Made by a program: the position numbers and the translations under genes. Positions 14,562-38,405 of a DNA stretch of 38,405 nucleotides are shown one piece after another. The DNA is from a virus. Location of the stretch: the IMG/VR virus record IMGVR_UViG_3300045988_111196. One strand, 5' to 3'. Position 1 is the stretch's first letter. Every line of letters starts with the position of its first letter. The notes under the pieces were generated by a model. The model worked only from the letters and a program-made list of their open reading frames with translations, did not search any database and was not told the DNA's origin.

Positions 14562-14574
14562 GAGGAAATGAAAA

Positions 14575-15163: not shown

Positions 15164-15284
15164 GAAACGCCCGGCCAACCTACCAAGTCAACGAGCGTTT
15201 CTGCTAAGAAGTTTCCTTCTGTAAATATTATAATGCAGAACGGAACTTCTTTCAAGAACGAATTTGAAAGGAGTTTTTATTATT

Positions 15285-16052
15285 ATGAACGATTTAATGA
15301 ACAAAGTTGCGCAGACACCTATTGAAATTGCTTTAGGTATTGACAAAAACGGAATGACAACAGCAAGAAAGCTATATGAGTTTCTTGGAATGGATAAAAG
15401 TAATTACTCAAGATGGATTAGGAATAATATCACAGAAAATCAATTTGCTACAGAAAATGAAGATTTTGTGCGATTCGTCATAAATGACGAGACGCCCACA
15501 GGCGGGAAAATAGCAAGAGAAGATTTTCGTTTATCCTGTAATTTTGCAAAGAAACTTTCTATGATGTCAAAGAGCGAGAAAGGCGAACAGGCACGCCAGT
15601 ATTTTGTACGAGTCGAAGATGGAATGAAAGAGGTCGCTCTTCGACTTCAGAATATGTCTCCAGAACTTCAAGCTATCATCATGCATGACAAGAAGATTCA
15701 GCAGGTAGAAAGTAAAGTGGAATCTGTTAATCAGGATTTGCAGGATTTTAAGATGGACATGCCGATTCTTGGGATTGAAATTGACAAAATTACGTCCGCG
15801 GTAAAAAAGAAAGGCGTACAATGTCTTGGTGGAAAAGAAAGCAATTCTTATAAAGACAAGTCTCTGCGCGGAAAGGTGTATCATGACATTTATAGAGAAT
15901 TGAAAAGACAATTTGGAGTCAGTACATATAAAGCAATCAAAAGAAACCAGTGTGACTTAGCGGTGGAAGTGATTGGGCGCTATGAACTTCCGTATGTCCT
16001 AGTAGAGCAGATACAGGACTGTAATGCACAAATAAGCATGGAGGTGGCGTAA
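15285..16052 (+). CDS. Antirepressor (AntA-like N-terminal domain + ORF6C-like C-terminal domain)
   Basis: Motifs TTARKLYEFLGMDKSNYSRWIRNNI...FKLSCNFAKKLSMMSKSEKGEQARQYFV (seen as REDFRLSCNFAKKL...) and the C-terminal KDKSLRGKVYHDIYRELKRQFGVSTYKAIKR. Confidence 0.75.
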   Translation: MNDLMNKVAQTPIEIALGIDKNGMTTARKLYEFLGMDKSNYSRWIRNNITENQFATENEDFVRFVINDETPTGGKIAREDFRLSCNFAKKLSMMSKSEKGEQARQYFVRVEDGMKEVALRLQNMSPELQAIIMHDKKIQQVESKVESVNQDLQDFKMDMPILGIEIDKITSAVKKKGVQCLGGKESNSYKDKSLRGKVYHDIYRELKRQFGVSTYKAIKRNQCDLAVEVIGRYELPYVLVEQIQDCNAQISMEVA

Positions 16053-16053
16053 G

Positions 16054-16164
16054 ATGCGTGAAGGAGAAAATTATAAAACAATTATTAAAGAAATGTTAGA
16101 AGACACAGAGGATGTGGAAGTGTTATGTTTTGTATATACTGTTTTGAAGAACTTATTGAAGTGA
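16054..16164 (+). CDS. 36-aa mini-ORF (not in track)
   Basis: RBS ggaggtgg lies 6 nt upstream. The peptide is MREGENYKTIIKEMLEDTEDVEVLCFVYTVLKNLLK. Confidence 0.4.
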   Translation: MREGENYKTIIKEMLEDTEDVEVLCFVYTVLKNLLK

Positions 16165-16232
16165 TAGAATAGAGCGGAAAATTCCGCTGTACTTATGGTT
16201 GTCTCTATAAATGCATGGTGTGGAGGTTCAAG

Positions 16233-16346
16233 ATGAAAAATCAAGAAAATGTGGAAAGTATGAGTGAACAAAGAAAAAGATATATTATTGAAACAATAGA
16301 ACAAATAACAGATGAAAACAAACTTGGGAACTGTATTATTTTATAA
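16233..16346 (+). CDS. 37-aa mini-ORF, apparent truncated paralogue of 16054..16164
   Basis: RBS ggagg is present. The peptide ...KRYIIETIEQITDENKLGNCIIL aligns with ...YKTIIKEMLEDTEDVEVLCFV. Confidence 0.3.
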   Translation: MKNQENVESMSEQRKRYIIETIEQITDENKLGNCIIL

Positions 16347-16393
16347 AGGGATATTTAGGAGAAGCTTGTTAAAAAGAGCTAAATACAATAATT

Positions 16394-16429
16394 AGAACAT
16401 CTATCAGAAATGGTAGGTGTTCTTTTTAT
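16394..16429 (+). terminator. Rho-independent terminator; copy 1 of an exact 36-bp repeat (see 37989..38024)
   Basis: AGAACATCTA / loop TCAGAAATGG / TAGGTGTTCT gives a 10-bp stem with one G-U pair, followed by TTTTTAT. Confidence 0.7.
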
Positions 16430-16466
16430 AAAAAATTATTGTGCAATAGCACGGAAAGGAGTAAAT

Positions 16467-17492
16467 ATGGGAACATATAACGTACATGCAGGACACTGTC
16501 CACAAGGACAGGGGGCATCCGGAGCAGTTGGCATCTTGCAGGAATCTGTAGAAGATAGAATCGTCAAAAACGAAGTAATCCGTCTATTAAGAGCAGATGG
16601 GCACACGGTCTACGACTGTACTTGTGACGAGAACACGACAAAACAAGGCTGTTTAAATAAGATTGTAGCAAAATGCAATCAGCACGATGTTGACTTTGAT
16701 ATGAGTGTGCATCTAAACAGTGGTCGGAATGACTACGGCGGAGACGGTAGTGCAGGCGGAGTTGAGGTAATTATTTACGACGACACAACGAAAGAAGTCG
16801 CAGAAAGAATCTGTGCAAATATCGCAACGGAACTCGGTATCCGCAATAGAGGCGTGAAATATAACAAGTCGCTATTCGTGCTGAAAAAGACGGTATCCCC
16901 AGCGTTTCTGATAGAATGTTGCTTTGTCGATGATGCAGACGATGCTAAAGCGTGGGATGCAAAGAGATGTGCGAAAGCGATCGTGGAAGGAGTGCTGAAT
17001 AGAAAAATGGCAACAGAAAAATATACAATGCACACGTTTGGTGCTAATAGAAAAATCTACGACAATGACAGAAAAGAATATCTAAAAGACAGATGGTGTC
17101 TGTACAAAGGTAAGTATTATTACTGTGGTAAAGATGAATATTTGCTGACTGGCTGGCAGACGAATGTAGATGGTCGAAAAAAAGTTTACTTTATCGCACC
17201 TGACTGGCACTTACACGCAGGGTGGTTGTCATTTGGTTCCACTTATTACTATATGCATTCAAACGGAGAGATGGCTACAGGCTGGACGAGAATCAACGGA
17301 GATACTTATTACTTTGGAGATGATGGAATCCGTAGAACAGGCTGGCAGACGATTGACGGAAAGAAATACTGGTTTGATGCAAAAACAGGGAAAATGTTAA
17401 AAGGCAGAATCACGTTCGGAAGCACTTGGTATTATCTGTCAGAAACAGACGGACATCTTATGCACACGAAAGATGATGGAAGCTTGTATTAA
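16467..17492 (+). CDS. Endolysin: N-acetylmuramoyl-L-alanine amidase (Amidase_3) with C-terminal CW_binding_1-type repeats
   Basis: RBS ggaaaggag is present. Amidase_3 features are YNVHAGH...E...H.N and PAFLIECCFVDDADDA...AKAIVEGVLN. The C-terminus carries YYY..G.MATGW / GDTYYFGDDGIRRTGWQTIDGKKYWFD repeats. Confidence 0.85.
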   Translation: MGTYNVHAGHCPQGQGASGAVGILQESVEDRIVKNEVIRLLRADGHTVYDCTCDENTTKQGCLNKIVAKCNQHDVDFDMSVHLNSGRNDYGGDGSAGGVEVIIYDDTTKEVAERICANIATELGIRNRGVKYNKSLFVLKKTVSPAFLIECCFVDDADDAKAWDAKRCAKAIVEGVLNRKMATEKYTMHTFGANRKIYDNDRKEYLKDRWCLYKGKYYYCGKDEYLLTGWQTNVDGRKKVYFIAPDWHLHAGWLSFGSTYYYMHSNGEMATGWTRINGDTYYFGDDGIRRTGWQTIDGKKYWFDAKTGKMLKGRITFGSTWYYLSETDGHLMHTKDDGSLY

Positions 17493-17740: not shown

Positions 17741-19096
17741 TTAAATTGTCCACCATCCCATTGCATTTCCTACGGAACTTACAAGGATTGCAATTAAGCA
17801 AATCGGTGCGATCCATTTGATCATAACTACGAATAACTTCTCGCCTTTGAATGTTCCGTCTGAGCTTTTTACTTCGTCGATAACAACTTTTGGCTTGATG
17901 ACAAATCCGACAAAAATACAAGTGAAGAATGCAAGGATTGGCATCAATATGCTGTTGCTGAGGAAATCGAATGCATCCAGGATTGACAAGTTAAGGAATG
18001 TGATGTCGCTCCAGATTCCAAATCCTAAAGAAGATGGGATACCCATTATCAATGCAATTACCGTAACGATAATACAAGTAAATTTACGGCTCCAGTGGAA
18101 TTTATCTCTTAAAATAGAAACAATTGTCTCCATCAGTGAGATGGAAGAGGTCAGTGCAGCAAAAAATATCAGAATAAAGAAAAGAGTTCCGATTGCACCA
18201 CCCATTGGCATGCTGTTAAATACTTTTGGAAGCATTACAAACATAAGTCCAGGTCCTTGTCCCAATTGCTCTGCTGTTCCGCCTGAGAAAGCGAATACTG
18301 CAGGGATGATCATAAGTCCTGCCATAAATGCAATACCGGTATCAAAAACCTCGATTTGGCGAACAGAACTTTCCAAATTATTATCTTTTTTCATATAAGA
18401 ACCATATGTAATCATAATTCCCATCGCAAGAGACATTGAGTAGAATAATTGTCCCATTGCTGCTATGACAGTCATTCCGGAGAAGTTTTCCATACTTGGT
18501 TTTACGTAATAAATCAGACCATCAATTGCTCCGTCCACTGTAAGTCCGTATCCTGCGATAATGACAGTTAAGACAACTAATACAGGCATCATAAATTTAC
18601 TCACTGTCTCGATTCCTTTTTCTACACCGAGAAGAACGATGATCGAAGTGAATGCAATAAAGAGACAGAACCATCCAATTGGTTCCCCTGTAGTGCCGAT
18701 GAAATTATTAAAATAAGCATCATCGGCAGCTGCCTGTACATTACCTGTTACAAATGTAACAAAATACTTGATTACCCATCCGCCGATTACACTATAATAA
18801 GGAAAGATGATAATCGGTATGATTGCGGCGAGTACTCCTAGAAAACCAAAGCGTTTATCTAATTTTTTGAAAGCGCCAATTGCGCTGAGCCCTGTCTTTC
18901 TTCCGATTGCGATTTCAGCAATCATTAATGAAAAACCGAATGTGACTGCAAGAATCAGATATACAAGAAGAAATGTTCCTCCTCCATATTTTGCTGCGAG
19001 ATACGGGAATCTCCAAAGGTTACCAAGCCCTACAGCAGACCCGGCAGCAGCAAGTACAAATCCAATCTTGCTGGAAAAATTACTTCTTTGTGACAT
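17741..19096 (-). CDS. Sodium-dependent transporter, NSS/SNF family (bacterial chromosomal-type gene)
   Basis: 451 aa, multi-TM. The signature is GFVLAAAGSAVGLGNLWRFPYLAAKYGGGTFLLVYL. RBS gaggagga is present. Confidence 0.9.
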   Translation of the reverse strand: MSQRSNFSSKIGFVLAAAGSAVGLGNLWRFPYLAAKYGGGTFLLVYLILAVTFGFSLMIAEIAIGRKTGLSAIGAFKKLDKRFGFLGVLAAIIPIIIFPYYSVIGGWVIKYFVTFVTGNVQAAADDAYFNNFIGTTGEPIGWFCLFIAFTSIIVLLGVEKGIETVSKFMMPVLVVLTVIIAGYGLTVDGAIDGLIYYVKPSMENFSGMTVIAAMGQLFYSMSLAMGIMITYGSYMKKDNNLESSVRQIEVFDTGIAFMAGLMIIPAVFAFSGGTAEQLGQGPGLMFVMLPKVFNSMPMGGAIGTLFFILIFFAALTSSISLMETIVSILRDKFHWSRKFTCIIVTVIALIMGIPSSLGFGIWSDITFLNLSILDAFDFLSNSILMPILAFFTCIFVGFVIKPKVVIDEVKSSDGTFKGEKLFVVMIKWIAPICLIAILVSSVGNAMGWWTI

Positions 19097-19251
19097 AAAA
19101 AATCCTCCTCAAAATTCATTTAGACTAAGTTAAGTAGCCTTATTATTGCATAAAAGTGAAAAGAATGCAAGAAAAAAAGAGCACAATCTGTTTTTTAATG
19201 CGAACAATTTTGAGAATGGTGTAAGAATAATAAGAAAAAATGAAAAAAACG

Positions 19252-19427
19252 TTGACAAAAATGGTGAGCTGTGATATGTTAATACATGCGTAAGGCAAAA
19301 AGAAAGCAGAGTTCCACTCTCACCTTAGCACAAGTGGGTGACTAATGGTTGATATTGAAGCATAAAAATAGAATTTCTATTTTGTGTGCAGAAATGGAGT
19401 GGATAGCTGTGAGCTATTCATTTTTTT
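19252..19427 (+). promoter_or_regulatory. infC promoter plus ribosomal-protein L20 leader with terminator
   Basis: TTGACA (19252-57), a 17-nt spacer, then TGaTATGTT. A structured leader follows, ending in hairpin GGATAGCT/AGCTATTC (19401-19419) plus T7. This is the position of the Firmicutes infC-rpmI-rplT L20 leader. Confidence 0.6.
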
Positions 19428-19493
19428 ACGCATCAATTATATGAAAAAATTAGAGTAAAGTAAAGATTATTTTATTTATGGAGGTGCACTACA

Positions 19494-20000
19494 ATTAGCG
19501 ATTTAATGATCAACGAGCAAATCAGAGACAAGGAAGTACGTTTAATAGGAGAGAATGGTGACCAGTTAGGCGTTATGTCTGCAAGGGAAGCTTTGAAGCT
19601 GGCAGAAGAGGAAGAATTGGATTTGGTTAAAATTGCTCCAACAGCAAAACCACCAGTTTGTAAGATTATTGATTATGGTAAATACAGATATGAACTGGCG
19701 AGAAAAGAAAAAGAAGCGAAGAAAAAACAAAAAACTGTTGAGGTAAAGGAAGTGCGTCTTTCGCCGAACATCGATACGAATGATTTGAACACGAAAGTGA
19801 ACAACGCAAAGAAATTTATCCAAAAAGGAAATAAAGTAAAAGTTACTTTACGTTTTCGAGGAAGAGAGATGGCTCATATGCAGACGAGCAAACATATTCT
19901 GGATGATTTTGCAGAGATGTTAAAAGATGTTGCAGCCATTGAAAAACCTGCAAAACTCGAAGGCAGAAGCATTAGTATGGTTTTAACTGAAAAACGTTAA
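19494..20000 (+). CDS. infC: Translation initiation factor IF-3 (ATT start codon)
   Basis: [24 protein letters not shown]...[16 protein letters not shown]...[13 protein letters not shown] is unmistakably IF-3. GGAGG (19480-84) lies 9 nt before in-frame ATT 19494, whereas ATG 19506 is 21 nt from the SD. Confidence 0.9.
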
Positions 20001-20034
20001 AAATAAATACCTAAATATTAAGGAGGAACATATC

Positions 20035-20229
20035 ATGCCAAAAATTAAAACAAATAGAGCTGCTGCAAAGCGCTTCAAAAAAACAGCTACAGGTAAATTA
20101 AAAAGAAACAAAGCTTACAAGAGCCATATCTTAACTAAGAAATCTACAAAAAGAAAAAGAAATCTTAGACAGGCAACTATTACAGATGCTACAAATTTTA
20201 GCGGTATTGGAAGCGCAGAAGACGATTGA
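20035..20229 (+). pseudogene. rpmI: Ribosomal protein L35, 3'-truncated and fused to unrelated sequence
   Basis: [54 protein letters not shown] is canonical L35. The last ~10 residues ([10 protein letters not shown]) are not L35-like. No rplT follows. Confidence 0.8.
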
Positions 20230-27337: not shown

Positions 27338-27688
27338 ATGAGCAGATTAACAAGAAAAGAAACAATAATTATAAGAGGAAATGAGACCGCGGCTTGTAAT
27401 TATAAAAATAATGAGTGTAATGACTCGTGCAGATATGGAATTTGCAAATGGCAAGAAAAAGCAAATATGCGGTTGAAAAAGTACGAAGATACCGGATTAA
27501 CTCCAGAGCAGGTGCAGGAGCTGAAGGAACGGGATACGGCGAAGAAACCGATTATCATCGGGGTGAATGGAGCAATTGGATGCAGAGTGGGGGAATGTCC
27601 AAAATGTGGAGGAATACTTAGAAGTTATATGAGGTTTTGCGACGAGTGCGGACAGAGATTAGATTTCGGAGGTTTAGATGAAATTTGA
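27338..27688 (+). CDS. Hypothetical protein with C-terminal zinc ribbon
   Basis: CPKCGG...FCDECGQ. Confidence 0.4.
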   Translation: MSRLTRKETIIIRGNETAACNYKNNECNDSCRYGICKWQEKANMRLKKYEDTGLTPEQVQELKERDTAKKPIIIGVNGAIGCRVGECPKCGGILRSYMRFCDECGQRLDFGGLDEI

Positions 27689-28175
27689 AAATGCATGTAA
27701 CTGCATAGTAGATTATTCAATTTTAGAAAAAGCAATAAAAGAAGAATGTAGTAGAAGAAATATCACACCCAAAGACGAATACAAAATTTATCTTTATCGT
27801 GGATATGCTGGAATTTCAATAAAGCATGACAAGGTGTCGGTACATAGAATAATTGGGAAATATATTGTTGGATTTAATTTCGATTCAGAAATTCACGTTC
27901 ACCATATTGATGGAAATAAATTAAATAATAATATTTCTAATCTTCAAGTAATTAAAAATTCGTTACATACAAAAGAACATAATTTAGTTCAATATGTTTC
28001 AGAAGAGTATAAAAGAAATTTTGGAAACAGGATGCGACATATTATTTCGAGAAGTGATGTTACAAAAGAAACAGTGATTTCTCTTAGGAACAAAGGGTTA
28101 ACAATCAACCAAATTGCTGAAAAACTAAATTGTGGATATAACACTGTTTGCAGAAGATTAGGAATGAAAGATTAG
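27678..28175 (+). CDS. HNH homing-type endonuclease with C-terminal HTH
   Basis: VHRII...IHVHHIDGNKLNNNISNLQVIKNSLHTKEH is an HNH_3-like motif. The C-terminus is LTINQIAEKLNCGYNTVCRRL. The gene is very AT-rich. Confidence 0.8.
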   Translation: MKFENACNCIVDYSILEKAIKEECSRRNITPKDEYKIYLYRGYAGISIKHDKVSVHRIIGKYIVGFNFDSEIHVHHIDGNKLNNNISNLQVIKNSLHTKEHNLVQYVSEEYKRNFGNRMRHIISRSDVTKETVISLRNKGLTINQIAEKLNCGYNTVCRRLGMKD

Positions 28176-30341: not shown

Positions 30342-30404
30342 TTATTCTAGAAAAGTTATAATTAACTTTAGACTTTTCTTCCCAAAACACACATACATTG
30401 AGAG

Positions 30405-30438
30405 AGACGCCTTGCAGAGATTGTGAGGTGTCTTTTTT
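30405..30438 (+). terminator. Rho-independent terminator after the regulator gene
   Basis: AGACGCCT (30405-12) pairs with AGGTGTCT (30426-33), followed by T6. Confidence 0.7.
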
Positions 30439-30445
30439 GTGAATT

Positions 30446-30481
30446 TTGTCAATAGACAAAAAAGAACAGACGTTCTATAAT
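30446..30481 (+). promoter_or_regulatory. Promoter of the two-gene cassette with overlapping palindrome
   Basis: TAGACA (30453-58), a 17-nt spacer, then TATAAT (30476-81). Inverted repeat TTGTCaataGACAA (30446-59) covers the -35. Confidence 0.6.
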
Positions 30482-30589
30482 GGATTTACTTCATACGTGA
30501 AATAAATGTCACACCATGTTGAATGATGATGAAAAATCTTGTATTATGTTTATAGGGTTTTGTTTATGTAAGTGTGTGGAGGAAAGAAT

Positions 30590-31561
30590 ATGAAACAAGA
30601 GAACATGAAAAGTAGTATGGTTGCAAACTTTAATTTGGTTTTTTATGGCGAGAATGGAAGTGAAGAACCATTGCTAAATTACTTTGATGCGATTTTTATG
30701 CCGGCACTCACTGCAAAGTATATTAAAAAAGCAGGAGATTCTGAGTTCTTTTTTACGGAAATTAATTTAGAAGAAGCAAGAGATGGAGAATATGTTTTAA
30801 CAGGTTTAATAGTTAAAAGAACCGTCTTAGAAGTAAAATCTGATGTGGATGAGAATTGGGATATAATTGAAAAGGATGAAAAATACCCGTCTGCACCATT
30901 CTCGATATTTGTGATTTATTTAAAGAATCATAGAATGCTATTTGTTAAAAATCAAAAGGGAAGTCCGACAATTCAAAATTTTAAGGCAACAGCGAAAGAT
31001 TTTTTGAATAGATTTGTTAAAGAGGAAAATCAGAGCTTAAAGGGAAAAAATAAAAAAGAACTTCCGATACCTATATTAAATGTAGTGGGTATTCCAATGA
31101 GGAAAAAATTGGTAGAATCATTAAAAGAAGTGGAAAAAATTAATGAACTGTGCTTAAGATTTTATCCATTAAATGGAGATATTGATTTTGGTGGGATATT
31201 AGGAGATATATCAAATGATGTCAGAAGAGCAGTGGGCTGTAAGAAAACAGATTTGATTTTAAAATCACCTGGAAATATAGAAGAAGTGATTGATTTAGTT
31301 GAAAAATCTAACGGGATTGTAGAGCCGATATTCAAGGTGACCTATAGAACTGAAGACGGAAAGAAGAAAAAGACAAGAATAAAAAATGAAAGAATTTCAG
31401 AGAGTATGAATTTGGATATTCGACAAGGGAATTTAAGAAACGAAATATCACAGATTATTGAAGAAGGTAAAAAATTGGAAAGCATTACATATGTGAGTGA
31501 AAATAACAATGAAATATATTCTAGAAACAGCAGTAAAATAATAGGTTTTATTAAAAAATAG
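30590..31561 (+). CDS. Cassette gene A: 323-aa soluble protein, no recognisable family
   Basis: GGAGG (30578-82) lies 7 nt before ATG 30590. I found no Walker, HNH, TIR or other motif. The gene is AT-rich. Confidence 0.8.
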   Translation: MKQENMKSSMVANFNLVFYGENGSEEPLLNYFDAIFMPALTAKYIKKAGDSEFFFTEINLEEARDGEYVLTGLIVKRTVLEVKSDVDENWDIIEKDEKYPSAPFSIFVIYLKNHRMLFVKNQKGSPTIQNFKATAKDFLNRFVKEENQSLKGKNKKELPIPILNVVGIPMRKKLVESLKEVEKINELCLRFYPLNGDIDFGGILGDISNDVRRAVGCKKTDLILKSPGNIEEVIDLVEKSNGIVEPIFKVTYRTEDGKKKKTRIKNERISESMNLDIRQGNLRNEISQIIEEGKKLESITYVSENNNEIYSRNSSKIIGFIKK

Positions 31562-31584
31562 TATTGGATGTGGAGGGTGAGAGA

Positions 31585-32229
31585 ATGAAAAAAATCGACA
31601 TTGATTTATTACAAAAAATGCTTGAACCTCAATCATCTGATCAAATAATGCTGGAATCTTTCGAGAGCTTAAAACCCACAAAAAAGGAGATTAAAAAATT
31701 CCTGTTTATTTGCTTAGTAGCATTGATTCCGGCATTGCTAATTGGCTATTCTGAAGATACGATTGATCTTTTTGAAAATTCAGTAGAAAAAATTAATGCT
31801 ATATTATTGGCGATATTTGGAATTGTATTTACAGGATATGTGTTTTTTCAAGCTTTGGTCAATGATGACTTATTGATTCGTATGTTGAATAGCAAAACTG
31901 AAAAAAATGGTAAAGACAAAAGCAAATTGCAAGAGACTAATGAGGAGTTTGTAAATTTGATGATGCTGTGCCTGTTTTTTATACTTTTGAATTTGTTTTT
32001 GTCATTGTGCTTAGGAGCTGTTCCAAATGATTTTGTATGTTTTGAAAGAAGAATATATAACAATGCTTTAGCAATACTATTGTTAAATTTATATTTCTTT
32101 TTCGCTTTTTATATAATGTGGGAGATAAAAAGTTTTATTTTTAACATTTTTCAGCTTTTCAAAATGCACGCGGGTACAAGAGTAATGGAAATTATAGAAA
32201 AAGAGAAAGATGAAGAACCAAACAATTAA
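31585..32229 (+). CDS. Cassette gene B: 214-aa membrane protein with four predicted TM helices
   Basis: GGAGGG lies 7 nt before ATG 31585, 23 nt after the gene A stop. Hydrophobic segments are FLFICLVALIPALLIGY, INAILLAIFGIVFTGYVFFQALV, FVNLMMLCLFFILLNLFLSLCLGAV and ALAILLLNLYFFFAFYIMWEI. Confidence 0.8.
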   Translation: MKKIDIDLLQKMLEPQSSDQIMLESFESLKPTKKEIKKFLFICLVALIPALLIGYSEDTIDLFENSVEKINAILLAIFGIVFTGYVFFQALVNDDLLIRMLNSKTEKNGKDKSKLQETNEEFVNLMMLCLFFILLNLFLSLCLGAVPNDFVCFERRIYNNALAILLLNLYFFFAFYIMWEIKSFIFNIFQLFKMHAGTRVMEIIEKEKDEEPNN

Positions 32230-32233
32230 ATAT

Positions 32234-32254
32234 GCACCCTTCGGGGTGCTTTTT
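32234..32254 (+). terminator. Rho-independent terminator (UUCG tetraloop)
   Basis: GCACCC-TTCG-GGGTGC followed by T5. Confidence 0.85.
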
Positions 32255-32303: not shown

Positions 32304-32450
32304 ATGGATAAGAAGGATCAAGAGAAGTTAAACAGAAAGAAAAGCAATGAAGAATTCAACAGCATTACTGAGAAGGTAAAGCCGGAGAATCAGAACCGGC
32401 ATCACAATGTCAGGAAAGAGGCAGTTGATGTGAAGATGAGACAAATGTAA
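32304..32450 (+). CDS. 48-aa basic hypothetical (not in track)
   Basis: The SD gaggtgagg is embedded in an 8-bp hairpin, TTCCTCAC (32274-81) / GTGAGGAA (32296-303). A weak terminator follows. Confidence 0.35.
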   Translation: MDKKDQEKLNRKKSNEEFNSITEKVKPENQNRHHNVRKEAVDVKMRQM

Positions 32451-32487
32451 GGCGTCCATTAGGGCGTCTTTTCTAATACCCAAATAT

Positions 32488-32559
32488 GGATACATAGCTC
32501 AGTGGTAGAGCACTTCACTCGTAGTGAATATGTCACAGGTTCGATTCCTGTTGTATCCA
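32488..32559 (+). tRNA. tRNA-Thr (anticodon CGT)
   Basis: Manual cloverleaf: acceptor GGATACA/TGTATCC, D arm GCTC-AGTGGTA-GAGC, anticodon arm CTTCA-CTCGTAG-TGAAT (one C-U mismatch), T arm ACAGG-TTCGATT-CCTGT, discriminator A. No CCA is encoded. Confidence 0.85.
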
Positions 32560-32604
32560 GAGATAGAAAATTAAAAAACAAACACGAATGAGAGGTGGTG
32601 AGGC

Positions 32605-33375
32605 TTGGCGAGACCGAGAAGTCCAAATAGAGATAAGGCGAAAGAATTATGGATTAAAAGTGGAAGAACACGCTTACTTAAAGACATTGCGGAAGAACTG
32701 CAGGTATCAGAAGAACAGATACGAAAGTGGAAAAATCAAGACAAGTGGGATAAGGTAACGTTACCAAATACAAATAGTAACGTTACCAATCAAAAGGGAG
32801 GACAACCAGGAAACAAGAATGCAGCAGGAAACCGAGGAGGAGCAGCGCCGACAAATAATAAAAATGCGTTAAAAACTGGAGAATTTGAGTCGATTTTTTT
32901 TGATACTTTAAGCCTGAAGGAAAAAGATTTGATTGATGGAGTTGCGCTGGAAAAAGAAAAACTACTCCTGCAAGAAATACAACTCTTGACAGTGAGAGAA
33001 TATCGAATGTTGAAGAGAATACAGATACTGAAAGAGGAAAGTGAAAATGATACTGCACGATCAGGAATGACAATGACGAAGTATACAAAAGGGGAAGAAA
33101 GAGGGGAATATACGGATTTAAAGGAATATGAAAGTGTTTTAGTTCAGATACAGATGATAGAAGATGCATTAACTAGAGTCCAAGCAAGAAAACAGAAGGC
33201 AATTGATTCGTTGCATAAAATTGGATATGATGATGCACGATTAGAGTTGGAAACAATGAAATTCGAATTAGAACTCTTGAAACAAGATGGACAAACTGAC
33301 GATAAGGAAGACGACGGATTTATTGAGGCAATGAATAAAACAGCGACGGATGTTTGGGGTGATTATGACGAATAG
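32605..33375 (+). CDS. Terminase small subunit
   Basis: N-terminal HTH LLKDIAEELQVSEEQIRKWKNQDKW and the GGQPGNKNAAGNRGGAAPTNNKNALKTG motif are typical of Firmicutes TerS. The start is TTG after RBS gagaggtgg. Confidence 0.8.
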   Translation: MARPRSPNRDKAKELWIKSGRTRLLKDIAEELQVSEEQIRKWKNQDKWDKVTLPNTNSNVTNQKGGQPGNKNAAGNRGGAAPTNNKNALKTGEFESIFFDTLSLKEKDLIDGVALEKEKLLLQEIQLLTVREYRMLKRIQILKEESENDTARSGMTMTKYTKGEERGEYTDLKEYESVLVQIQMIEDALTRVQARKQKAIDSLHKIGYDDARLELETMKFELELLKQDGQTDDKEDDGFIEAMNKTATDVWGDYDE

Positions 33376-34771
33376 AACTAAAGCGTTAAAGCGAAAAATA
33401 TCCGAAATGAAAAGCAGAAGAAAAGCGATTTCAAAACAAATATTTAAGTTTCAGCCTTTTTCGAAAAAGCAGAAACAGGTGTTAACCTGGTGGCTTCCGA
33501 CATCTCCGGTAAAAGATAGAGATGGCATAATAGCGGACGGGGCAATCAGATCGGGGAAAACAGTCAGCATGTCTTTGTCTTATGTAATGTGGGCGATGAC
33601 CACTTTTTCCGGGCAAAACTTCGGAATGTGCGGAAAAACGATTGGTTCATTCAGGAGAAATGTACTGTTTTGGTTAAAACTAATGCTGAAAAGCAGAGGT
33701 TATGGAGTAGTGGACCACAGATCGGACAATCTGATTGTAGTATCTAAAAATGGAATAGAAAACTATTTTTATATATTTGGTGGAAAAGACGAACGGTCAC
33801 AAGACTTGATACAAGGTATCACTCTTGCAGGCTGTTTTTTTGATGAAGTAGCGTTGATGCCGGAAAGTTTTGTAAATCAAGCTACCGGAAGATGTTCGGT
33901 GGATGGATCTAAGTTTTGGTTTAACTGCAATCCGGATGGTCCATATCACTGGTTTAAAGTAAATTGGATTGATAAGAGTGTTGATTTTTTAGGAAAGAAA
34001 AAAGCGGAAGAATTAAAAAAGAAGAATATTGTTCTAAAAAATTTATTATATATACACTTCACTATGGATGATAATTTGAGTCTAAGTGAGAAAGTAAAAG
34101 AAAGATACCGTTCGATGTATACTGGTGTATTTTACAAGCGGTATATACGTGGATTGTGGGCTGTTGCCGAAGGAATTATTTACGACATGTTTTCAGAAGA
34201 GAAACATGTGCAGAATATATTGCAATTTTTCAGAAGTTTAACTAATTCCGGAAGATACGTAAGCGTAGATTACGGTACACAAAATGCAACAGTTTTTCTT
34301 TTGTGGAATAAAGGAATAGACGGGAAATGGTATTGTATCCGAGAGTACTACTATTCCGGAAGAGAAAAAGAAGAACAGAAGACAGATAATCAGTATGTAG
34401 AGGATTTTAAAGAGTTTTTGGACGGAACGGAAATAAAAGCAGTAATCGTAGACCCGTCAGCTGCATCTTTCATCGCTTCGTTAAGAAAAGCTGGATTTTC
34501 AGTCATTAAAGCAAAAAATGATGTAGAAGACGGTATTCGTGTTGTGGGAATGCTTTTGAATCAAGAAAAAATTATTTTTTCTGAATCGTGTGTGAATACT
34601 AGAAAAGAATTTGCTTCCTATGCATGGGATAAAAAAGCAGCAGAACGCGGAGAAGACAAGCCGATAAAAACAATGGATCATGCAATGGATGCCGTAAGGT
34701 ATTTCTGTTATACGATTTTAAATAATCAAAAAGCAAGAGTCAAAGACAAGAAAAAACTAGGATTCCAGTAG
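33350..34771 (+). CDS. Terminase large subunit (PBSX family; likely start ATG 33365)
   Basis: Walker A GAIRSGKT, FDEVALM, and the C-terminal nuclease motif MDHAMDAVRY. Confidence 0.9.
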   Translation: MFGVIMTNRTKALKRKISEMKSRRKAISKQIFKFQPFSKKQKQVLTWWLPTSPVKDRDGIIADGAIRSGKTVSMSLSYVMWAMTTFSGQNFGMCGKTIGSFRRNVLFWLKLMLKSRGYGVVDHRSDNLIVVSKNGIENYFYIFGGKDERSQDLIQGITLAGCFFDEVALMPESFVNQATGRCSVDGSKFWFNCNPDGPYHWFKVNWIDKSVDFLGKKKAEELKKKNIVLKNLLYIHFTMDDNLSLSEKVKERYRSMYTGVFYKRYIRGLWAVAEGIIYDMFSEEKHVQNILQFFRSLTNSGRYVSVDYGTQNATVFLLWNKGIDGKWYCIREYYYSGREKEEQKTDNQYVEDFKEFLDGTEIKAVIVDPSAASFIASLRKAGFSVIKAKNDVEDGIRVVGMLLNQEKIIFSESCVNTRKEFASYAWDKKAAERGEDKPIKTMDHAMDAVRYFCYTILNNQKARVKDKKKLGFQ

Positions 34772-34784
34772 AGAGGAGAAAAAT

Positions 34785-36203
34785 ATGCTTTGTAGCCTTA
34801 CTTATCCAAGAGATAAATACGACGAAGAAAATCTTGATAAAAGGTTGATTGTACAATTAATCAGTAAACATCGCAAATATATAGTTCCACAATTAAGGAA
34901 GAATAAGGAATATTATGATGGAAAGCATGCGATATCGGATAAAGAGAGGGAAAATAATGCTCCGAATGCAAAAACGGTATGCAATCATGCGAAAGATATT
35001 ACCGATACAGCATCGGGGTATTTTATGGGAAATCCAATAACATATAACAACACAGGAGAAAATGATATAGAGGCACTGATGAAAGCGTTTGATGTAGCTG
35101 AAGTAGATGACACAGACAATGATAACGCTCTGATGCAGTCAATATATGGAGTTGCCTATGATTATACATATGCAGCAGAAGGAAAGTCGGAGTTGATGAC
35201 GAGAAACCTGGAATCGGAAAATACGTTTATTGTACAGGATGACTCCATCGAACAAAAAGAATTATTCGGGGTGTATTACTACATTCGAAGAAATTCTGCG
35301 ACAAATGAAGAAAAATACATAGCGACTGTATGCACAGAAAACTTAATCTATAATTTTGAGCTTTCGACAGATTACAGCGAAGAACAAGCGATGCCGGAAG
35401 AACAAGGCGTTGCTCACAATATGAGAGAGTGTCCGATCACAGAGTACAAAAACAACAAGTTCAACATCGGAGATTTTGAACAACAAATCGGGTTAATAGA
35501 TGCATACAATATGCTAATGGCGGACAGGGTGAATGATAAGGAACAATTCATCGATGCGATACTTGTGATATATGGTTCGCTGCTTGGAGATACCGAAGAT
35601 GAATCAAAAGAAGCGCACAAGAAGTTAAAGTCTGAGAAATTGCTGGAAATGGACCAGGATGCGCGAGCGGAGTACCTAACGAGGCAATTGGATGAAACAG
35701 GTGCAGAAACGCTTAGGAAAGCGATAAAAGAAGATATTTATACATTTAGTCATATTCCAAATCTGACAGATGAAAATTTCAGTGGAAATACATCCGGTGT
35801 GGCAATGGAATACAAACTGCTTGGACTGGAAATGGTAACAAAAATAAAAGAACGATATTACAGGAAGGGATTAAGAAAACGAATACGACTTTTCTGTAAT
35901 TTCCTAGAATTAAAGGCGATTTCTATGGAGTCCGATTCTATCATACCTGTATTCAGTAGGGCGTTACCGAAAAATCTAGTTGAAACAGCACAGATAATTG
36001 CAAATCTTGATGGAAAAGTAAGCACCAGGACGTTGATACAGCTATTGCCATTTGTGGAAGATCCGGATGCGGAAGTAGAAAATGTTAAGAAGGAAAAAGA
36101 AGATAACGTAGAAGCGCAAAGAAGAGTATTTTCTGTAAATGAAAATACAGCTCCGGAAGATACAATTCCGAAAGAAGAGGAAGATGCTGATATAGATGAA
36201 TAA
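34785..36203 (+). CDS. Portal protein (SPP1 gp6-like)
   Basis: 472 aa following terL. It carries KNKEYYDGKHAI...NHAKDITDTASGYFMGNPITY. Confidence 0.9.
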   Translation: MLCSLTYPRDKYDEENLDKRLIVQLISKHRKYIVPQLRKNKEYYDGKHAISDKERENNAPNAKTVCNHAKDITDTASGYFMGNPITYNNTGENDIEALMKAFDVAEVDDTDNDNALMQSIYGVAYDYTYAAEGKSELMTRNLESENTFIVQDDSIEQKELFGVYYYIRRNSATNEEKYIATVCTENLIYNFELSTDYSEEQAMPEEQGVAHNMRECPITEYKNNKFNIGDFEQQIGLIDAYNMLMADRVNDKEQFIDAILVIYGSLLGDTEDESKEAHKKLKSEKLLEMDQDARAEYLTRQLDETGAETLRKAIKEDIYTFSHIPNLTDENFSGNTSGVAMEYKLLGLEMVTKIKERYYRKGLRKRIRLFCNFLELKAISMESDSIIPVFSRALPKNLVETAQIIANLDGKVSTRTLIQLLPFVEDPDAEVENVKKEKEDNVEAQRRVFSVNENTAPEDTIPKEEEDADIDE

Positions 36204-37725
36204 AAAAACACTTTCTTATTGGAAAAAAAGAAAATCTCAGAGAATGTTTGAGTATATGGAGGAGGCAGAGAAAAACGCAAAACAGATAGCAGATATTTAT
36301 GCGAAAGCAAGCAGATATTTGATTTATAAAGCGGAAGAAATTTTTGATAAATATGTAGATAAATATGAACTTACAGAGAAAGAAGCTTTAGATCTTTTGT
36401 CAAGAATGAAAAAGAAAGAAGATATCGAAGAGCTGAAAAGGTTACTGGCAGCAGAAAAAGATAATAAAAAGAAAAAAGATCTTCTTGCCAAATTGGAAGC
36501 TCCTGCATATCAATTCAGAATAAGGAGACTAAAACAACTGCAAGATGAAATTGATTCGATGATGTTTTCTGTATATCAACAGGAAAAAATAATTTCGACT
36601 AACTTTTACACAGATTTAGGAATAGAGGCATATTACAAGTCGGTGTTTGATTTGCAGTCCTATACAGAAATAGGATTTCGATTCGTAAACATAGATGAAA
36701 ACAAGATTGCGAAAGCGTTGTACGCAAAGTGGTCGGGAGAAAATTATTCAAAACGTATTTGGAAGAATACAGATAGACTTGCGCAGGAATTAAAAGAGCA
36801 ATTGACTGTTTCGATTATGACTGGAAAGCCACTTAGGGAAGTTGCAAGAGAGCTAGAAAATCAATTTTTAGTTGGAAGTTATCAGGCGAGAAGATTAGTC
36901 AGGACAGAAAGCGCTTATATTGTTGGCCAACTTGAAATTGAGTCGTATAAGGAGTGTGGGATAGAGGAATATATATTTGTAGCGACACTGGACTTAAAAA
37001 CATCGACTATATGCAGAAATATGGATAAAATGCGCATCAGGCTTGAAGATGCTTTAGTAGGAACAAATTATCCGCCTATGCATCCGTTTTGTAGATCTAC
37101 TACAATTGCTTACATATCAGAAGAAGTATTAAAAACCATGAAAGCACGTGCGAGAGATCCAGAGACTGGAGAAAACATTTTTGTACCGGCGAACATGACG
37201 TGGAGTGAGTGGTATAACAGATATGTGAAAGGGAAAAAGGCAGCAAAGACTGTAGAGAAAAAGATAAAGGGTGAATCTGCAGATAAAAAACAATATAAAT
37301 CTTATAAAGAAGTTTTGGGAAATCAAAAAGATTTAGAATCTTTTGCTAAGTTTCGAGATATGAAGTATAATAAAAATGAAACCTGGAAGGAAATGAAAGA
37401 AGCATACAAAGATGTAAATTGGCAGAAAAAATGTCAAGAAAACATAAGCTCCGGGGAAGTTCATAAAGTACCATTTGAAAACGCACCGAACAGTATATTT
37501 GATAAATATGAAAATGGGAAAATAGTTCAAAGAAGATATTACGGAAAGACGGGAAAGCCAAGACTGGATATAGACTTAACGGATCATGGCAATGCAGTAA
37601 AACATCCAGTTGTGCCACATAGACATGGATGGAAAGAATTGAATGATTCGAGCGTAAAAAGAGATGAGGTGCATGATATGCCGTTAAAATTAGGAGATAA
37701 AATAGCAAATGCTGATATTTTATAG
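36196..37725 (+). CDS. Minor head protein, MuF/SPP1 gp7 family, with ~165-aa C-terminal extension
   Basis: MuF core features ARRLVRTESAYI...NYPPMHPFCRSTTIAY. The extension (37226-37725) contains DLTDHGNAVKHPVVPHRHGW. Confidence 0.85.
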   Translation: MNKKTLSYWKKRKSQRMFEYMEEAEKNAKQIADIYAKASRYLIYKAEEIFDKYVDKYELTEKEALDLLSRMKKKEDIEELKRLLAAEKDNKKKKDLLAKLEAPAYQFRIRRLKQLQDEIDSMMFSVYQQEKIISTNFYTDLGIEAYYKSVFDLQSYTEIGFRFVNIDENKIAKALYAKWSGENYSKRIWKNTDRLAQELKEQLTVSIMTGKPLREVARELENQFLVGSYQARRLVRTESAYIVGQLEIESYKECGIEEYIFVATLDLKTSTICRNMDKMRIRLEDALVGTNYPPMHPFCRSTTIAYISEEVLKTMKARARDPETGENIFVPANMTWSEWYNRYVKGKKAAKTVEKKIKGESADKKQYKSYKEVLGNQKDLESFAKFRDMKYNKNETWKEMKEAYKDVNWQKKCQENISSGEVHKVPFENAPNSIFDKYENGKIVQRRYYGKTGKPRLDIDLTDHGNAVKHPVVPHRHGWKELNDSSVKRDEVHDMPLKLGDKIANADIL

Positions 37726-37733
37726 AGAGGGTG

Positions 37734-37982
37734 ATGAAATTGGGAGACAGGCTTGAGAGTTTAAAAGAATTGACGGATGCAGTTGATATGGGGCTTGATA
37801 TAGAGTTTAGGTTGTACGGAATTCGATATAATATATCGACGGATGGAACTCCGTTCATTGCGGAATGCCCGGATGGAGAAGGGACGTATTATGATAATGC
37901 AGAAGATATGGTAAATAACCATAGAGTAAATGAAAAATTATTAAAAGATATTTGGCAGGAATTTGAAATATTGGGAATGTAA
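37734..37982 (+). CDS. Small hypothetical protein directly after the MuF gene
   Basis: RBS agagagg is present. The 82-aa ORF is followed by the repeated terminator. Confidence 0.5.
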   Translation: MKLGDRLESLKELTDAVDMGLDIEFRLYGIRYNISTDGTPFIAECPDGEGTYYDNAEDMVNNHRVNEKLLKDIWQEFEILGM

Positions 37983-37988
37983 AAACAA

Positions 37989-38024
37989 AGAACATCTATC
38001 AGAAATGGTAGGTGTTCTTTTTAT
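37989..38024 (+). terminator. Rho-independent terminator; copy 2 of the exact 36-bp repeat
   Basis: Identical to 16394..16429. Confidence 0.7.
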
Positions 38025-38107
38025 GAAAGAAATTAGGTGGGAGGTGGTCGGAATGTCTCGGAGTTATCCGTTAAATAGCGAAAACAATAACGAAAGGAGT
38101 TTAAATT

Positions 38108-38405
38108 ATGCAAAATGAAAAGAGAAGATTTCCGTTAGCACTGCAATTTTTCTCGGATGATGGAGAGAGCGATGAAGGGAAAAAACCAGACGGAACAGGA
38201 GAAGAAGGTCAGTCGTTCGACGATTTCATCGAAAAAGACGGAAACAAAGAAGAATTTGAAAAAAGAATGAAAGAAGCAGTAAAAAAAGCAGTTTCAGAAG
38301 CGCAAGAGAAATGGGAAAGTTTAACTGATGATAAGCTTTCGGAAGCAGAAAAACTTGCACGCATGACAAAGGAACAAAAAGAACAGTATTTACAGCAAAA
38401 AAAAG
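38108..38405 (+). CDS. Capsid scaffolding protein, N-terminal part (continues at 100..434 after removing the overlap)
   Basis: RBS aaaggag lies 8 nt before ATG 38108. The ORF is open to the window end and in frame with 3..434. Confidence 0.7.
   Translation, partial: MQNEKRRFPLALQFFSDDGESDEGKKPDGTGEEGQSFDDFIEKDGNKEEFEKRMKEAVKKAVSEAQEKWESLTDDKLSEAEKLARMTKEQKEQYLQQKK
38307..38405. repeat. Terminal overlap copy (identical to 1..99)
   Basis: Exact 99-nt identity. Confidence 0.95.

What the first reader, a model, noticed from the sequence alone, without database searches (positions are those of the whole stretch)
30446..32254. Self-contained AT-rich two-gene cassette (motif-less soluble protein + 4-TM membrane protein) between late regulator and terminase: candidate undescribed RexAB/Kiwa-style defence system
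**Seen in the sequence**
- The upstream gene ends in a good terminator (30405-38).
- A consensus-like promoter follows: TAGACA, 17 nt, TATAAT. Its -35 is covered by the palindrome TTGTCaataGACAA.
- A ~105-nt leader precedes two tightly coupled genes, each with GGAGG 7 nt upstream of its ATG and only a 23-nt gap between them.
- A textbook GCACCC-UUCG-GGGUGC+U5 terminator closes the unit.
- Composition is foreign. My hand counts of 60-nt lines give 28% and 30% G+C inside the cassette (lines 31021, 31801) versus 45-47% in the flanking regulator and terL lines (30061, 33541).
- Gene A (323 aa) has no catalytic or NTP-binding motif that I can recognise.
- Gene B has four long hydrophobic helices and a charged loop (KTEKNGKDKSKLQETNEE).

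**Established knowledge**
- Autonomously transcribed 'morons' in prophages often encode exclusion or abortive-infection functions.
- A cytoplasmic sensor paired with a small polytopic membrane effector is the logic of lambda RexA/RexB. Kiwa (KwaA 4-TM + KwaB) has similar component sizes but the opposite gene order.

**Inference**
- This is a lysogenic-conversion defence pair with a membrane-disrupting effector, possibly a new family.
Basis: partly seen in the sequence, partly recalled or inferred. Interest (0 to 1): 0.88.

Follow-up and report, generated by a model that had tools for sequence, protein, structure and literature searches.

The report
SOS-controlled RexAB-type prophage defence cassette
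A self-contained two-gene cassette in a gut-bacterium prophage encodes a soluble protein with the fold of phage lambda's RexA and a four-helix membrane partner, so it is most likely an unannotated, widespread relative of the classic RexAB phage-exclusion system, apparently switched on by DNA damage.

Summary
Genes A (30590-31561, 323 aa) and B (31585-32229, 214 aa) form an insulated unit with its own promoter and a terminator on each side. It is the most AT-rich 1.8 kb of the window.

Neither protein matches Pfam, PADLOC, PHROGs or NCBIfam. The AlphaFold model of A has one significant PDB match, lambda RexA (8twq, E=2e-7), and the same domain layout. B has four hydrophobic spans and no detectable relative, RexB included.

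It is the only such box in the window and is conserved in 14 of 35 homologous loci.

Verdict: a RexAB-type abortive-infection pair from a new sequence family, with predicted SOS control. It is a new variant of a known kind. Function is inferred, not shown.

The parts
30399..30439 (+). Upstream intrinsic-terminator-like hairpin with T-run. It ends transcription of the regulator gene and insulates the cassette from read-through.
   Evidence: Upstream terminators occur in 12/32 homologous loci against about 3% per 125-nt control segment.
30446..30459 (.). Its significance is doubtful.
   Evidence: Single occurrence, not above chance. It recurs only in L069 among the fetched loci.
30453..30481 (+). 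Promoter P1: -35 TAGACA, 17-nt spacer, -10 TATAAT (11/12 match).
   Evidence: The equivalent promoter lies 106-160 nt upstream of A in many homologous loci.
30464..30475 (.). GAACAGACGTTC, matching GAAC-N4-GTTC, the LexA (Cheo/DinR) operator consensus of Bacillus and Clostridium. It fills the P1 spacer and abuts the -10 hexamer.
   Evidence: It is the only such box in the 38-kb window. An exact box in the same geometry occurs in 14/35 non-redundant loci against 0.3% background. 22 of 26 distinct boxes in 847 kb of loci lie upstream of gene A. Consensus taken from PMC4234289. LexA binding is not tested.
30519..30547 (+). Second promoter-like site P2, TTGAAT-17-TATTAT (9/12), about 70 nt upstream of A and inside the P1 leader. 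It could give LexA-independent basal expression.
   Evidence: The position is conserved in alignment A5, as TTGAAA-17-TATTAT or as an extended -10 TGnTATAAT.
30578..30582 (+). Ribosome-binding site GGAGG, 7 nt before the ATG of gene A.
30590..31561 (+). Gene A, 323 aa, soluble, pI 8.5. RexA-fold protein and the putative DNA-binding sensor/activator.
- Residues 1-152: N-terminal domain with seven strands.
- Residues 160-276: alpha/beta domain with four helices.
- Residues 282-318: C-terminal helices.
   Evidence: AF2 model with pLDDT 83.9 and pTM 0.83. Foldseek against PDB: 8twq lambda RexA at E=2.2e-7 and probability 1.00, the only significant hit. 657 relatives in 1.84e9 representative proteins. 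No Pfam, PADLOC, PHROGs or NCBIfam family.
31572..31576 (+). Ribosome-binding site GGAGG, 8 nt before the ATG of gene B. The A-B gap is 23 nt.
31585..32229 (+). Gene B, 214 aa. Membrane protein with four hydrophobic spans (about 42-54, 71-85, 126-144, 165-176). Predicted N-in/C-in topology, an N-terminal cytoplasmic extension of about 36 residues, a conserved charged central loop (KLQETNE) and a conserved C-terminal amphipathic helix (KSFIFNIFQLF). Putative membrane effector.
   Evidence: It follows A directly in 57 of 62 A hits. No fold or sequence relative was found.
32234..32254 (+). Intrinsic terminator GCACCC-TTCG-GGGTGC plus TTTTT, closing the unit.
   Evidence: Downstream terminators occur in 13/32 homologous loci against 3% of controls.

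Best explanation
The cassette is a RexAB-type two-component abortive-infection/exclusion module carried as a mobile accessory unit (a 'moron') by an integrated Lachnospiraceae prophage.

Proposed mechanism:
1. A and B are made from one bicistronic mRNA that starts at the cassette's own promoter and stops at its own terminator.
2. In an unstressed lysogen the main promoter P1 is held down by host LexA bound to the GAAC-N4-GTTC box that fills its spacer. A weaker downstream promoter P2 may give basal expression.
3. DNA damage or RecA activation, for example during phage attack or stress, derepresses P1.
4. Protein A, a basic soluble protein with the lambda RexA fold and by analogy a dimeric non-specific DNA binder, senses an infection cue.
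5. A then activates protein B, a four-helix inner-membrane protein. Contact is probably through B's conserved cytoplasmic loop and C-terminal helix.
6. B compromises membrane integrity or potential. Cell growth and phage development stop.

Shown here: the anatomy, A's fold similarity to RexA, the strict A-B pairing, the mobility between contexts, and the conservation of the LexA-type box.

Inferred: LexA binding, DNA binding by A, the A-B interaction, membrane damage, and defence itself.
For: - Fold: A's only significant PDB match is lambda RexA 8twq (E=2.2e-7, probability 1.00; the next hit has E=2.7e-3 and probability 0.14).
- Domain layout: the model's element order is seven strands with flanking helices, then an alpha/beta domain with four helices, then returning C-terminal helices. 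This matches the published RexA architecture (PMC11077077). The pI is 8.5 against 8.6 for RexA.
- Partner: B has four hydrophobic spans like RexB, Sbash gp31, CarolAnn gp43 and P. putida RexB (PMC6426596, PMC12894663). Gene order is the same as rexA-rexB.
- Pairing: 57 of 62 A hits have B directly downstream. All exceptions are truncated, frameshifted or too divergent.
- Bridge to lambda-like placement: in Klebsiella P2-like phage 4LV2017 an A homologue (hhalign 98.6%, E=5e-16) lies directly after cI. It is followed by an unannotated 4-TM ORF with a weak B match (E=9e-5).
- Autonomy: promoter and terminators are enriched across loci, and the cassette has the lowest G+C of the window.
- LexA box; consensus from PMC4234289.
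- Precedent: DNA-damage control of DUF4747/CarolAnn-type operons by CapK/CapS (PMC13373217).
Against: - The global TM-score to RexA is only 0.29-0.33 (rmsd 14 A). This is plausibly due to the hinge between domains, but no per-domain superposition could be run.
- No sequence-level link was found. hhalign of A profiles against RexA, the RexA family and CarolAnn gp44 gives probability below 1%. Only 1 of 129 family members touches Pfam DUF4747, at E=4e-4.
- B has no detectable similarity to RexB or CarolAnn gp43, nor to any PDB or BFVD structure.
- PADLOC finds nothing. As a control, it also misses the validated CarolAnn pair.
- SOS-induced expression would coincide with the prophage's own induction, which is awkward for a suicide system.
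- The LexA box is present in only about 40% of loci.
- There is no experimental evidence of any phenotype.
Confidence: 0.6

Rival explanations
1. The pair mainly serves the prophage's own life cycle. A RexA-like protein made when LexA is cleaved helps commit the prophage to lytic growth, as lambda RexA does by binding CI and stabilising the lytic state, and B modulates it. Exclusion of other phages would be secondary or absent.
For: - The LexA-type box predicts expression exactly when SOS-dependent induction happens.
- Lambda RexA and RexB assist the lysogeny-to-lytic transition (bioRxiv 10.1101/2021.04.19.439022; PMC11077077).
- The usual position is at the early/late boundary, next to a transcriptional regulator and terS.
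Against: - The identical cassette serves phages with different modules.
- About 60% of loci lack the LexA box.
Confidence: 0.17
2. It is an SOS-induced membrane toxin module with a TisB-like or toxin-antitoxin/addiction logic. B depolarises the membrane under DNA damage to cause dormancy or to stabilise the element, and A acts as its regulator or antidote rather than as a phage sensor.
For: - A LexA-type operator in front of a small polytopic membrane protein.
- HicAB toxin-antitoxin modules are neighbours in L068.
- In Butters the membrane protein sequesters a toxic cytosolic partner (PMC12894663).
Against: - A is large (323 aa), has the RexA fold and comes first in the operon, which is unlike typical antitoxins.
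- The LexA box is absent from most loci.
- No toxin-antitoxin family match was found.
Confidence: 0.08
3. It is a superinfection-exclusion system acting at the envelope. B blocks DNA injection or receptor function of incoming phages, in the manner of Sie, Imm or Ltp, and A is a cytoplasmic accessory. No cell suicide is involved.
For: - A membrane protein encoded by a prophage moron.
- A weak PHROGs hit of B to a 'moron/membrane protein' family (E=0.13).
Against: - The strictly conserved soluble RexA-fold partner is not a feature of known Sie systems.
- B's conserved residues face the cytoplasm, in the central loop and the C-terminal helix.
- The PHROGs hit is not significant.
Confidence: 0.07
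4. The resemblance of A to RexA is convergent or spurious, and the pair has an unrelated, unknown accessory function.
For: - Low TM-score.
- No sequence or profile similarity to any Rex-like protein.
- B is unrelated to RexB.
Against: - Foldseek E=2e-7 with a full-length collinear alignment and no competing hit.
- Matching domain composition.
- Same gene order and same type of partner.
- The Klebsiella relative sits exactly where rexA sits in lambda.
Confidence: 0.08

Closest known systems
Phage lambda RexA/RexB exclusion system (Pfam PF15969/PF15968; PDB 8twq)
   Same: - Two adjacent prophage genes in the same order: a basic soluble protein, then a 4-TM membrane protein.
- A has the RexA fold as its only significant PDB match, with the same two-domain layout.
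- A relative in a Klebsiella P2-like phage lies directly downstream of cI, as rexA does.
   Different: - No sequence or profile similarity for either protein.
- B is 214 aa against 144 aa, with an extra N-terminal cytoplasmic segment, a long C-terminal helix and acidic pI.
- The cassette is not co-transcribed with the repressor. It has its own promoter with a LexA-type operator.
- The host is a Firmicute.
Mycobacteriophage Sbash gp30/gp31 and Gordonia phage CarolAnn gp44/gp43 ('DUF4747/CarolAnn' type)
   Same: - A soluble protein of about 320-370 aa followed by a 4-TM protein of about 165-215 aa.
- Sbash 30/31 also have their own promoter and sit away from the repressor, next to tail genes (PMC6426596), like L064 and L070 here.
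- Faint DUF4747 signals occur in a minority of A homologues.
- The central cytoplasmic loop of the membrane partner is functionally important in Sbash and is highly conserved in B.
   Different: - hhalign of the A and B profiles against CarolAnn gp44 and gp43 finds nothing.
- Different phylum.
- Predicted LexA control is not reported for those systems.
Pseudomonas putida prophage P1 RexABpp (PP_5643/PP_5644)
   Same: - It was assigned to the RexAB type on the same grounds used here: RexA similarity by remote homology and structure, a 4-TM partner with no detectable RexB homology, and a prophage location (PMC12894663).
- HicAB is a neighbour there, as in L068 here.
   Different: - RexApp is detectable by HHpred (98%), whereas the A family is not detectable by hhalign here.
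- RexABpp has experimental support (DNA binding, B-dependent membrane damage) and this cassette has none.
DNA-damage-regulated immune operons (CapK/CapS and related regulators)
   Same: Predicted induction of a RexAB-type operon by DNA damage. DUF4747/CarolAnn operons are among those placed under CapK/CapS control (PMC13373217).
   Different: No dedicated regulator genes are present here. Control would be direct, by host LexA at an operator embedded in the promoter.
Kiwa (KwaA 4-TM + KwaB DUF4868)
   Same: A membrane protein plus a soluble protein of similar sizes.
   Different: Opposite gene order, no PADLOC or Pfam match to KwaA or KwaB, and A has the RexA fold instead.

Membership tests
Lambda RexA family (Pfam PF15969, PADLOC RexA) | Significant sequence or profile match to RexA | tested here: not met
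   No Pfam or PADLOC hit. hhalign of the A profiles against RexA and against a 26-sequence RexA alignment gives probability below 1%. Positive control: lambda RexA hits both libraries.
Lambda RexA family (fold level) | Two-domain RexA fold: a split globular domain with a seven-stranded sheet, an inserted alpha/beta dimerization domain, and a returning C-terminal helix | tested here: met
   Foldseek against 8twq gives E=2.2e-7 and probability 1.00, the only significant PDB hit. The model has 7 strands in residues 1-152, an alpha/beta domain with 4 helices at 160-276, and C-terminal helices at 282-318, compared with the description in PMC11077077. Caveat: global TM is 0.29-0.33 and no per-domain superposition was possible.
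RexAB-type system | RexA-like gene immediately followed by a gene for a roughly 4-TM membrane protein, conserved as a pair | tested here: met
   Four hydrophobic spans. B lies directly downstream in 57 of 62 A hits found through A alone.
RexAB-type system | Carried by a temperate phage or prophage and expressed independently of lytic genes | tested here: inconclusive
   The prophage location is shown. An own promoter and flanking terminators are predicted and enriched across loci. Expression itself is not measurable here.
RexAB-type system | Non-specific DNA binding and dimerisation of the RexA-like protein; B-dependent membrane damage; exclusion of heterologous phages | not testable with these tools
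   Needs EMSA, overexpression toxicity assays, membrane-potential dyes and plaque assays.
Lambda RexB family (Pfam PF15968, PADLOC RexB) | Sequence or fold similarity to RexB | tested here: not met
   No Pfam or PADLOC hit. hhalign against RexB gives probability 1%. No significant PDB or BFVD fold match. Only the four-span architecture is shared with RexB.
DUF4747 / CarolAnn-Sbash type | Match to Pfam DUF4747 (PF15931) or to CarolAnn gp44/gp43 | tested here: not met
   1 of 129 family members hits DUF4747, at E=4e-4. Precomputed hits exist on 16 of the 120 listed homologues but were not reproduced by hmmscan. hhalign against gp44 and gp43 finds nothing. CarolAnn gp44 itself has no Pfam or PADLOC hit.
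Kiwa | KwaA (4-TM) followed by KwaB (DUF4868) | tested here: not met
   No PADLOC or Pfam hit. The gene order is reversed.
LexA (SOS) regulon of Firmicutes | GAAC-N4-GTTC operator placed within or overlapping the promoter | tested here: met
   GAACAGACGTTC at 30464-30475 lies between the -35 and -10 hexamers and is unique in the window. It is conserved in 14/35 loci against 0.3% background. 22 of 26 boxes in 847 kb lie upstream of A. Consensus from PMC4234289.
LexA (SOS) regulon of Firmicutes | LexA binding and induction by DNA damage | not testable with these tools
   Needs EMSA with host LexA and transcript measurement with and without mitomycin C.
Prophage 'moron' | Own promoter, own terminator, deviant base composition, variable presence and position among related phages | tested here: met
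   Positions vary. The identical cassette is joined to three different packaging modules.

The most novel reading that the evidence does not exclude
This would be the first RexAB-type system of Firmicutes. It would also be the founding member of a large, unannotated family (hundreds of 50%-identity clusters, very common in human-gut Lachnospiraceae prophages) whose abortive-infection effector is licensed directly by the host SOS repressor. LexA cleavage, not lysogeny as such, would arm the membrane-damaging pair. That would couple DNA-damage sensing to phage exclusion, or to commitment to prophage induction, without any dedicated regulator gene.
Probability: 0.3. Interest if true: 0.7.

Novelty: new variant of a known kind. 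Interest (0 to 1): 0.6.

Why it matters

This cassette defines a family that current annotation resources (Pfam, PADLOC, PHROGs, NCBIfam) do not recognise. The family is abundant in human-gut Lachnospiraceae prophages: the exact A protein occurs in 599 collection blocks, and 657 representative clusters match the A profile.

It offers three things:
- Many natural sequence variants with strongly conserved motifs, in B's cytoplasmic loop and C-terminal helix and in A's NHRM...NQKGSP and PLNGD segments. These can guide mutagenesis of the sensor-effector interface.
- A simple, testable regulatory hypothesis: a LexA operator inside the promoter. This links the emerging theme of DNA-damage-controlled immunity to a classic exclusion system.
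- A route to annotating an unrecognised two-gene pair in other phages, for example the unannotated partner ORF in Klebsiella phage 4LV2017.

It bears on phage-bacterium dynamics in the gut and on defence-system annotation.

Tried and rejected
- Family libraries (Pfam, PADLOC, PHROGs, NCBIfam) for A and B: nothing above threshold.
- PDB sequence profiles for A and B: nothing.
- hhalign of the A profiles (Neff 2.6 and 5.9) against lambda RexA, a RexA-family alignment and CarolAnn gp44: no similarity.
- hhalign of the B profile against RexB and CarolAnn gp43: none.
- Fold search of B against PDB and BFVD: no significant match. I spent the last fold search on B rather than on A against BFVD.
- The precomputed PF15931 (DUF4747) tags on some A homologues: hmmscan did not reproduce them, and only 1 of 129 members gives E=4e-4. 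They are a lead, not evidence.
- Nucleotide search of the cassette in deposited phage genomes: no match. The protein search found only the Klebsiella P2-like phages.
- A structured RNA leader or riboswitch: no Rfam hit, and the fold z-score is -1.7.
- Kiwa relationship: rejected.
- Literature search 'RexAB + LexA + SOS': swamped by the unrelated S. aureus RexAB (AddAB-type) helicase-nuclease.
Full report
OBSERVATION

The upstream gene matches phrog_36, a transcriptional regulator family (E=8e-13), and ends in a terminator-like hairpin with a T-run at 30399-30439. A promoter match TAGACA-17-TATAAT at 30453-30481 is the best in 29.5-33 kb, at 11/12. Gene A (30590-31561, 323 aa) and gene B (31585-32229, 214 aa) are 23 nt apart. 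GGAGG lies 7 nt before the ATG of A and 8 nt before the ATG of B. GCACCC-TTCG-GGGTGC plus T5 at 32234-32254 closes the unit.

The dip is nevertheless real. The cassette is 0.301 against 0.384 for the rest and is the lowest 1.8-kb stretch of the whole window. Downstream come a 48-aa ORF, a tRNA-Thr, terS (phrog_1889, E=1e-75) and terL.

The window is chromosomal. An SNF-family transporter, infC and rpmI lie at 17.7-20.2 kb. The cassette therefore sits in an integrated prophage whose left junction is at the 3' end of rpmI.

THE PROTEINS

Neither protein reaches any threshold in Pfam, PADLOC, PHROGs or NCBIfam, or in PDB sequence profiles. Both have many homologues: 489 for A and 85 for B in the word-indexed search. 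A profile of A finds 657 representative clusters, 137 of them below 1e-30.

Both AlphaFold models are confident (A: pLDDT 83.9, pTM 0.83; B: pLDDT 82.9). For A the only significant PDB match is lambda RexA, 8twq (E=2.2e-7, probability 1.00). The next hit has E=2.7e-3 and probability 0.14.

The global TM-score is low, at 0.29-0.33. RexA is a hinged two-domain protein that was crystallised in a closed state (PMC11077077), so a low global score can be reconciled with a full-length collinear alignment. I could not run a per-domain superposition.

The order of elements in the model fits the published RexA layout: a split globular domain with a seven-stranded sheet, an inserted four-helix alpha/beta dimerization domain, and a returning C-terminal helix. 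The model has seven strands and two helices in residues 1-152, an alpha/beta domain with four helices in 160-276, and C-terminal helices in 282-318. A is basic (pI 8.5, against 8.6 for RexA).

B has four hydrophobic spans. Its charge distribution fits an N-in/C-in topology. Its most conserved motifs are FGIVFTGYxFFQAL in TM2, KLQETNExF in the central cytoplasmic loop, and KSFIFNIFQLF in a C-terminal amphipathic helix. B has no significant fold match in PDB or BFVD.

NO SEQUENCE-LEVEL LINK TO KNOWN REX PROTEINS

hhalign of A profiles (Neff 2.6 and 5.9) against lambda RexA, a 26-member RexA alignment and CarolAnn gp44 gives probabilities below 1%. B against RexB and against CarolAnn gp43 likewise gives nothing.

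Some A homologues carry a precomputed PF15931 tag. That family is DUF4747, the domain that the Sbash, CarolAnn and Butters papers report as a weak HHpred link to RexA. My hmmscan did not reproduce the tags, and only 1 of 129 family members hits DUF4747, at E=4e-4.

A control shows that these negatives are typical of the group. PADLOC and Pfam recognise lambda RexA and RexB, but neither recognises the experimentally validated CarolAnn gp44/gp43. The P. putida RexAB-type system was likewise assigned without any detectable RexB homology (PMC12894663).

PAIRING AND MOBILITY

I collected loci through A alone, from species-representative genomes, IMG/VR and assemblies. In these, 57 of 62 A hits have a B homologue directly downstream on the same strand (gap -36 to +32 nt). 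Every exception is a truncated or frameshifted copy, or the very divergent Klebsiella copy. Hosts named in the records are Lachnospiraceae: Dorea, Roseburia, Sporofaciens and Faecalimonas.

The commonest position is just upstream of terS, in at least 20 of 39 loci, and this holds in prophages with different replication and packaging modules. The identical A protein is present in 599 collection blocks and is joined to three different packaging modules.

The pair also occurs in other settings:
- after a tape-measure-sized gene inside tail modules;
- between two HicAB modules;
- between a ParM-like gene and an HTH repressor;

In Klebsiella P2-like phage 4LV2017 an A homologue (hhalign 98.6%, E=5e-16) lies directly downstream of cI, exactly where rexA lies in lambda. 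It is followed by an unannotated 201-aa four-span ORF with a weak match to B (E=9e-5).

REGULATION

Across 32 non-redundant loci, a promoter match of at least 10/12 lies within 250 nt upstream in 17. A terminator lies downstream in 13 and upstream in 12. Control segments give 3-4%.

That palindrome occurs once in the window, which is no more than chance, and recurs only in L069. The conserved element is GAAC-N4-GTTC, filling the spacer and abutting the -10 hexamer: AGAACAGACGTTCTATAAT in the window. This is the LexA operator consensus of Bacillus and Clostridium (PMC4234289).

It is the only such box in the 38-kb window. An exact box in the same geometry occurs in 14 of 35 non-redundant loci, against 0.3% of background segments. 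Of 26 distinct boxes in 847 kb of fetched loci, 22 lie upstream of gene A.

A second promoter-like site about 70 nt upstream of A is also positionally conserved. The leader has no Rfam match and no significant structure.

INTERPRETATION

The best-supported reading is a RexAB-type two-component abortive-infection/exclusion module, carried as a moron. A RexA-fold sensor would activate a four-helix membrane effector, and in a large subset the main promoter would be repressed by host LexA and induced by DNA damage.

The following are shown: anatomy, fold similarity, pairing, mobility, defence-like neighbours, and conservation of the operator. DNA binding, the A-B interaction, membrane damage, LexA binding and protection are all inferred by analogy with lambda, Sbash, CarolAnn and P. 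putida (PMC6426596, PMC6426606, PMC12894663). DNA-damage control of DUF4747/CarolAnn-type operons through CapK/CapS gives a precedent for the regulatory logic (PMC13373217).

The main rival is that SOS-timed expression serves the prophage's own switch to lytic growth, as reported for lambda RexA. The non-prophage and varied contexts argue against that being the sole role.

NOVELTY

The kind of system is known. The sequence family, its Firmicute host range, the divergent B protein and the embedded LexA operator are not described in the literature I could search. The P. putida paper counts five described RexAB-like systems, all from Proteobacteria or Actinobacteria. I rate this a new variant of a known kind, of moderate-to-high interest.

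Noticed in passing
window 17741-20229: Host genes sit in the middle of the window: an SNF-family Na+ transporter (17741-19096, - strand; E=2e-89 to 4us3), infC/IF-3 (19506-20000; E=4e-58) and rpmI/bL35 (20035-20229). The last ~14 residues of bL35 diverge from solved homologues, and rplT does not follow. This suggests a prophage integrated at the 3' end of rpmI, with phage genes starting at about 20.2 kb. No integrase is visible at that junction.
   Followed up: partly
window 1-17492: The left 17.5 kb looks like the late end of a phage. By my reading of the sequence, the ORF at 16410-17492 is an amidase-type endolysin with cell-wall-binding repeats. It abuts the host genes on the other side, so the host island would be flanked by phage DNA on both sides (two prophages, or a rearrangement). 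Not examined with tools.
   Followed up: no
window 32487-32560: A tRNA-Thr (anticodon CGT) lies between the cassette and terS.
   Followed up: no
window 32304-32474: A 48-aa, highly charged ORF (32304-32450) has its own GAGGTGAGG ribosome-binding site and a terminator-like hairpin (GGCGTCC-ATTA-GGGCGTC plus T-run). It stays with A and B in close relatives that have different packaging modules (L072, L073), but is absent from more distant loci such as L001.
   Followed up: partly
window 27601-28175: A second AT-rich patch (G+C 0.287 at 27601-28000) coincides with an HNH_3 endonuclease gene carrying an HTH domain (27678-28175; E=6e-10). It is probably a homing-endonuclease insertion, and is followed by a YopX-family gene.
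   Followed up: no
L008:5025-5630 (Klebsiella phage 4LV2017, KY271398 record positions about 1244-1849): An unannotated 201-aa ORF with four hydrophobic spans lies directly after the A-like 'hypothetical protein' that follows cI. With that gene it would form an unrecognised RexAB-type pair in a P2-like phage, and the same arrangement is present in 11 further Klebsiella phage records.
   Followed up: partly
[not shown]
   Followed up: no
L068:4131-4776 and 8482-9126: HicA/HicB toxin-antitoxin modules lie on both sides of the A/B pair in a ParA/Rep-carrying phage-like element. The P. putida RexABpp prophage also carries HicAB2.
   Followed up: no
window 30830-30889 (protein A residues 81-100): The one low-confidence loop of the A model (pLDDT below 50 at residues 81-84 and 93-100) contains invariant or nearly invariant residues (S84, D85, E94, D96, then A102 and P103). 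It is a conserved, probably flexible surface loop and a candidate sensing or interaction site.
   Followed up: no
L019:1881: One of the few LexA-type boxes not upstream of gene A. It has a -10-like TATAAT directly adjacent on the minus strand in the same prophage region, so it may be another SOS-controlled phage promoter.
   Followed up: no
L072, L073 compared with window 32600-38405: There is marked mosaicism. An identical early region plus cassette is joined to three unrelated packaging/head modules: Phage_terminase terS with Terminase_6N in the window, HNH with TerL_ATPase and an HK97-type portal and capsid in L072, and Terminase_2 with an SPP1 portal and Mu_F in L073. The exchange point lies just downstream of the cassette and the 48-aa ORF.
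   Followed up: partly
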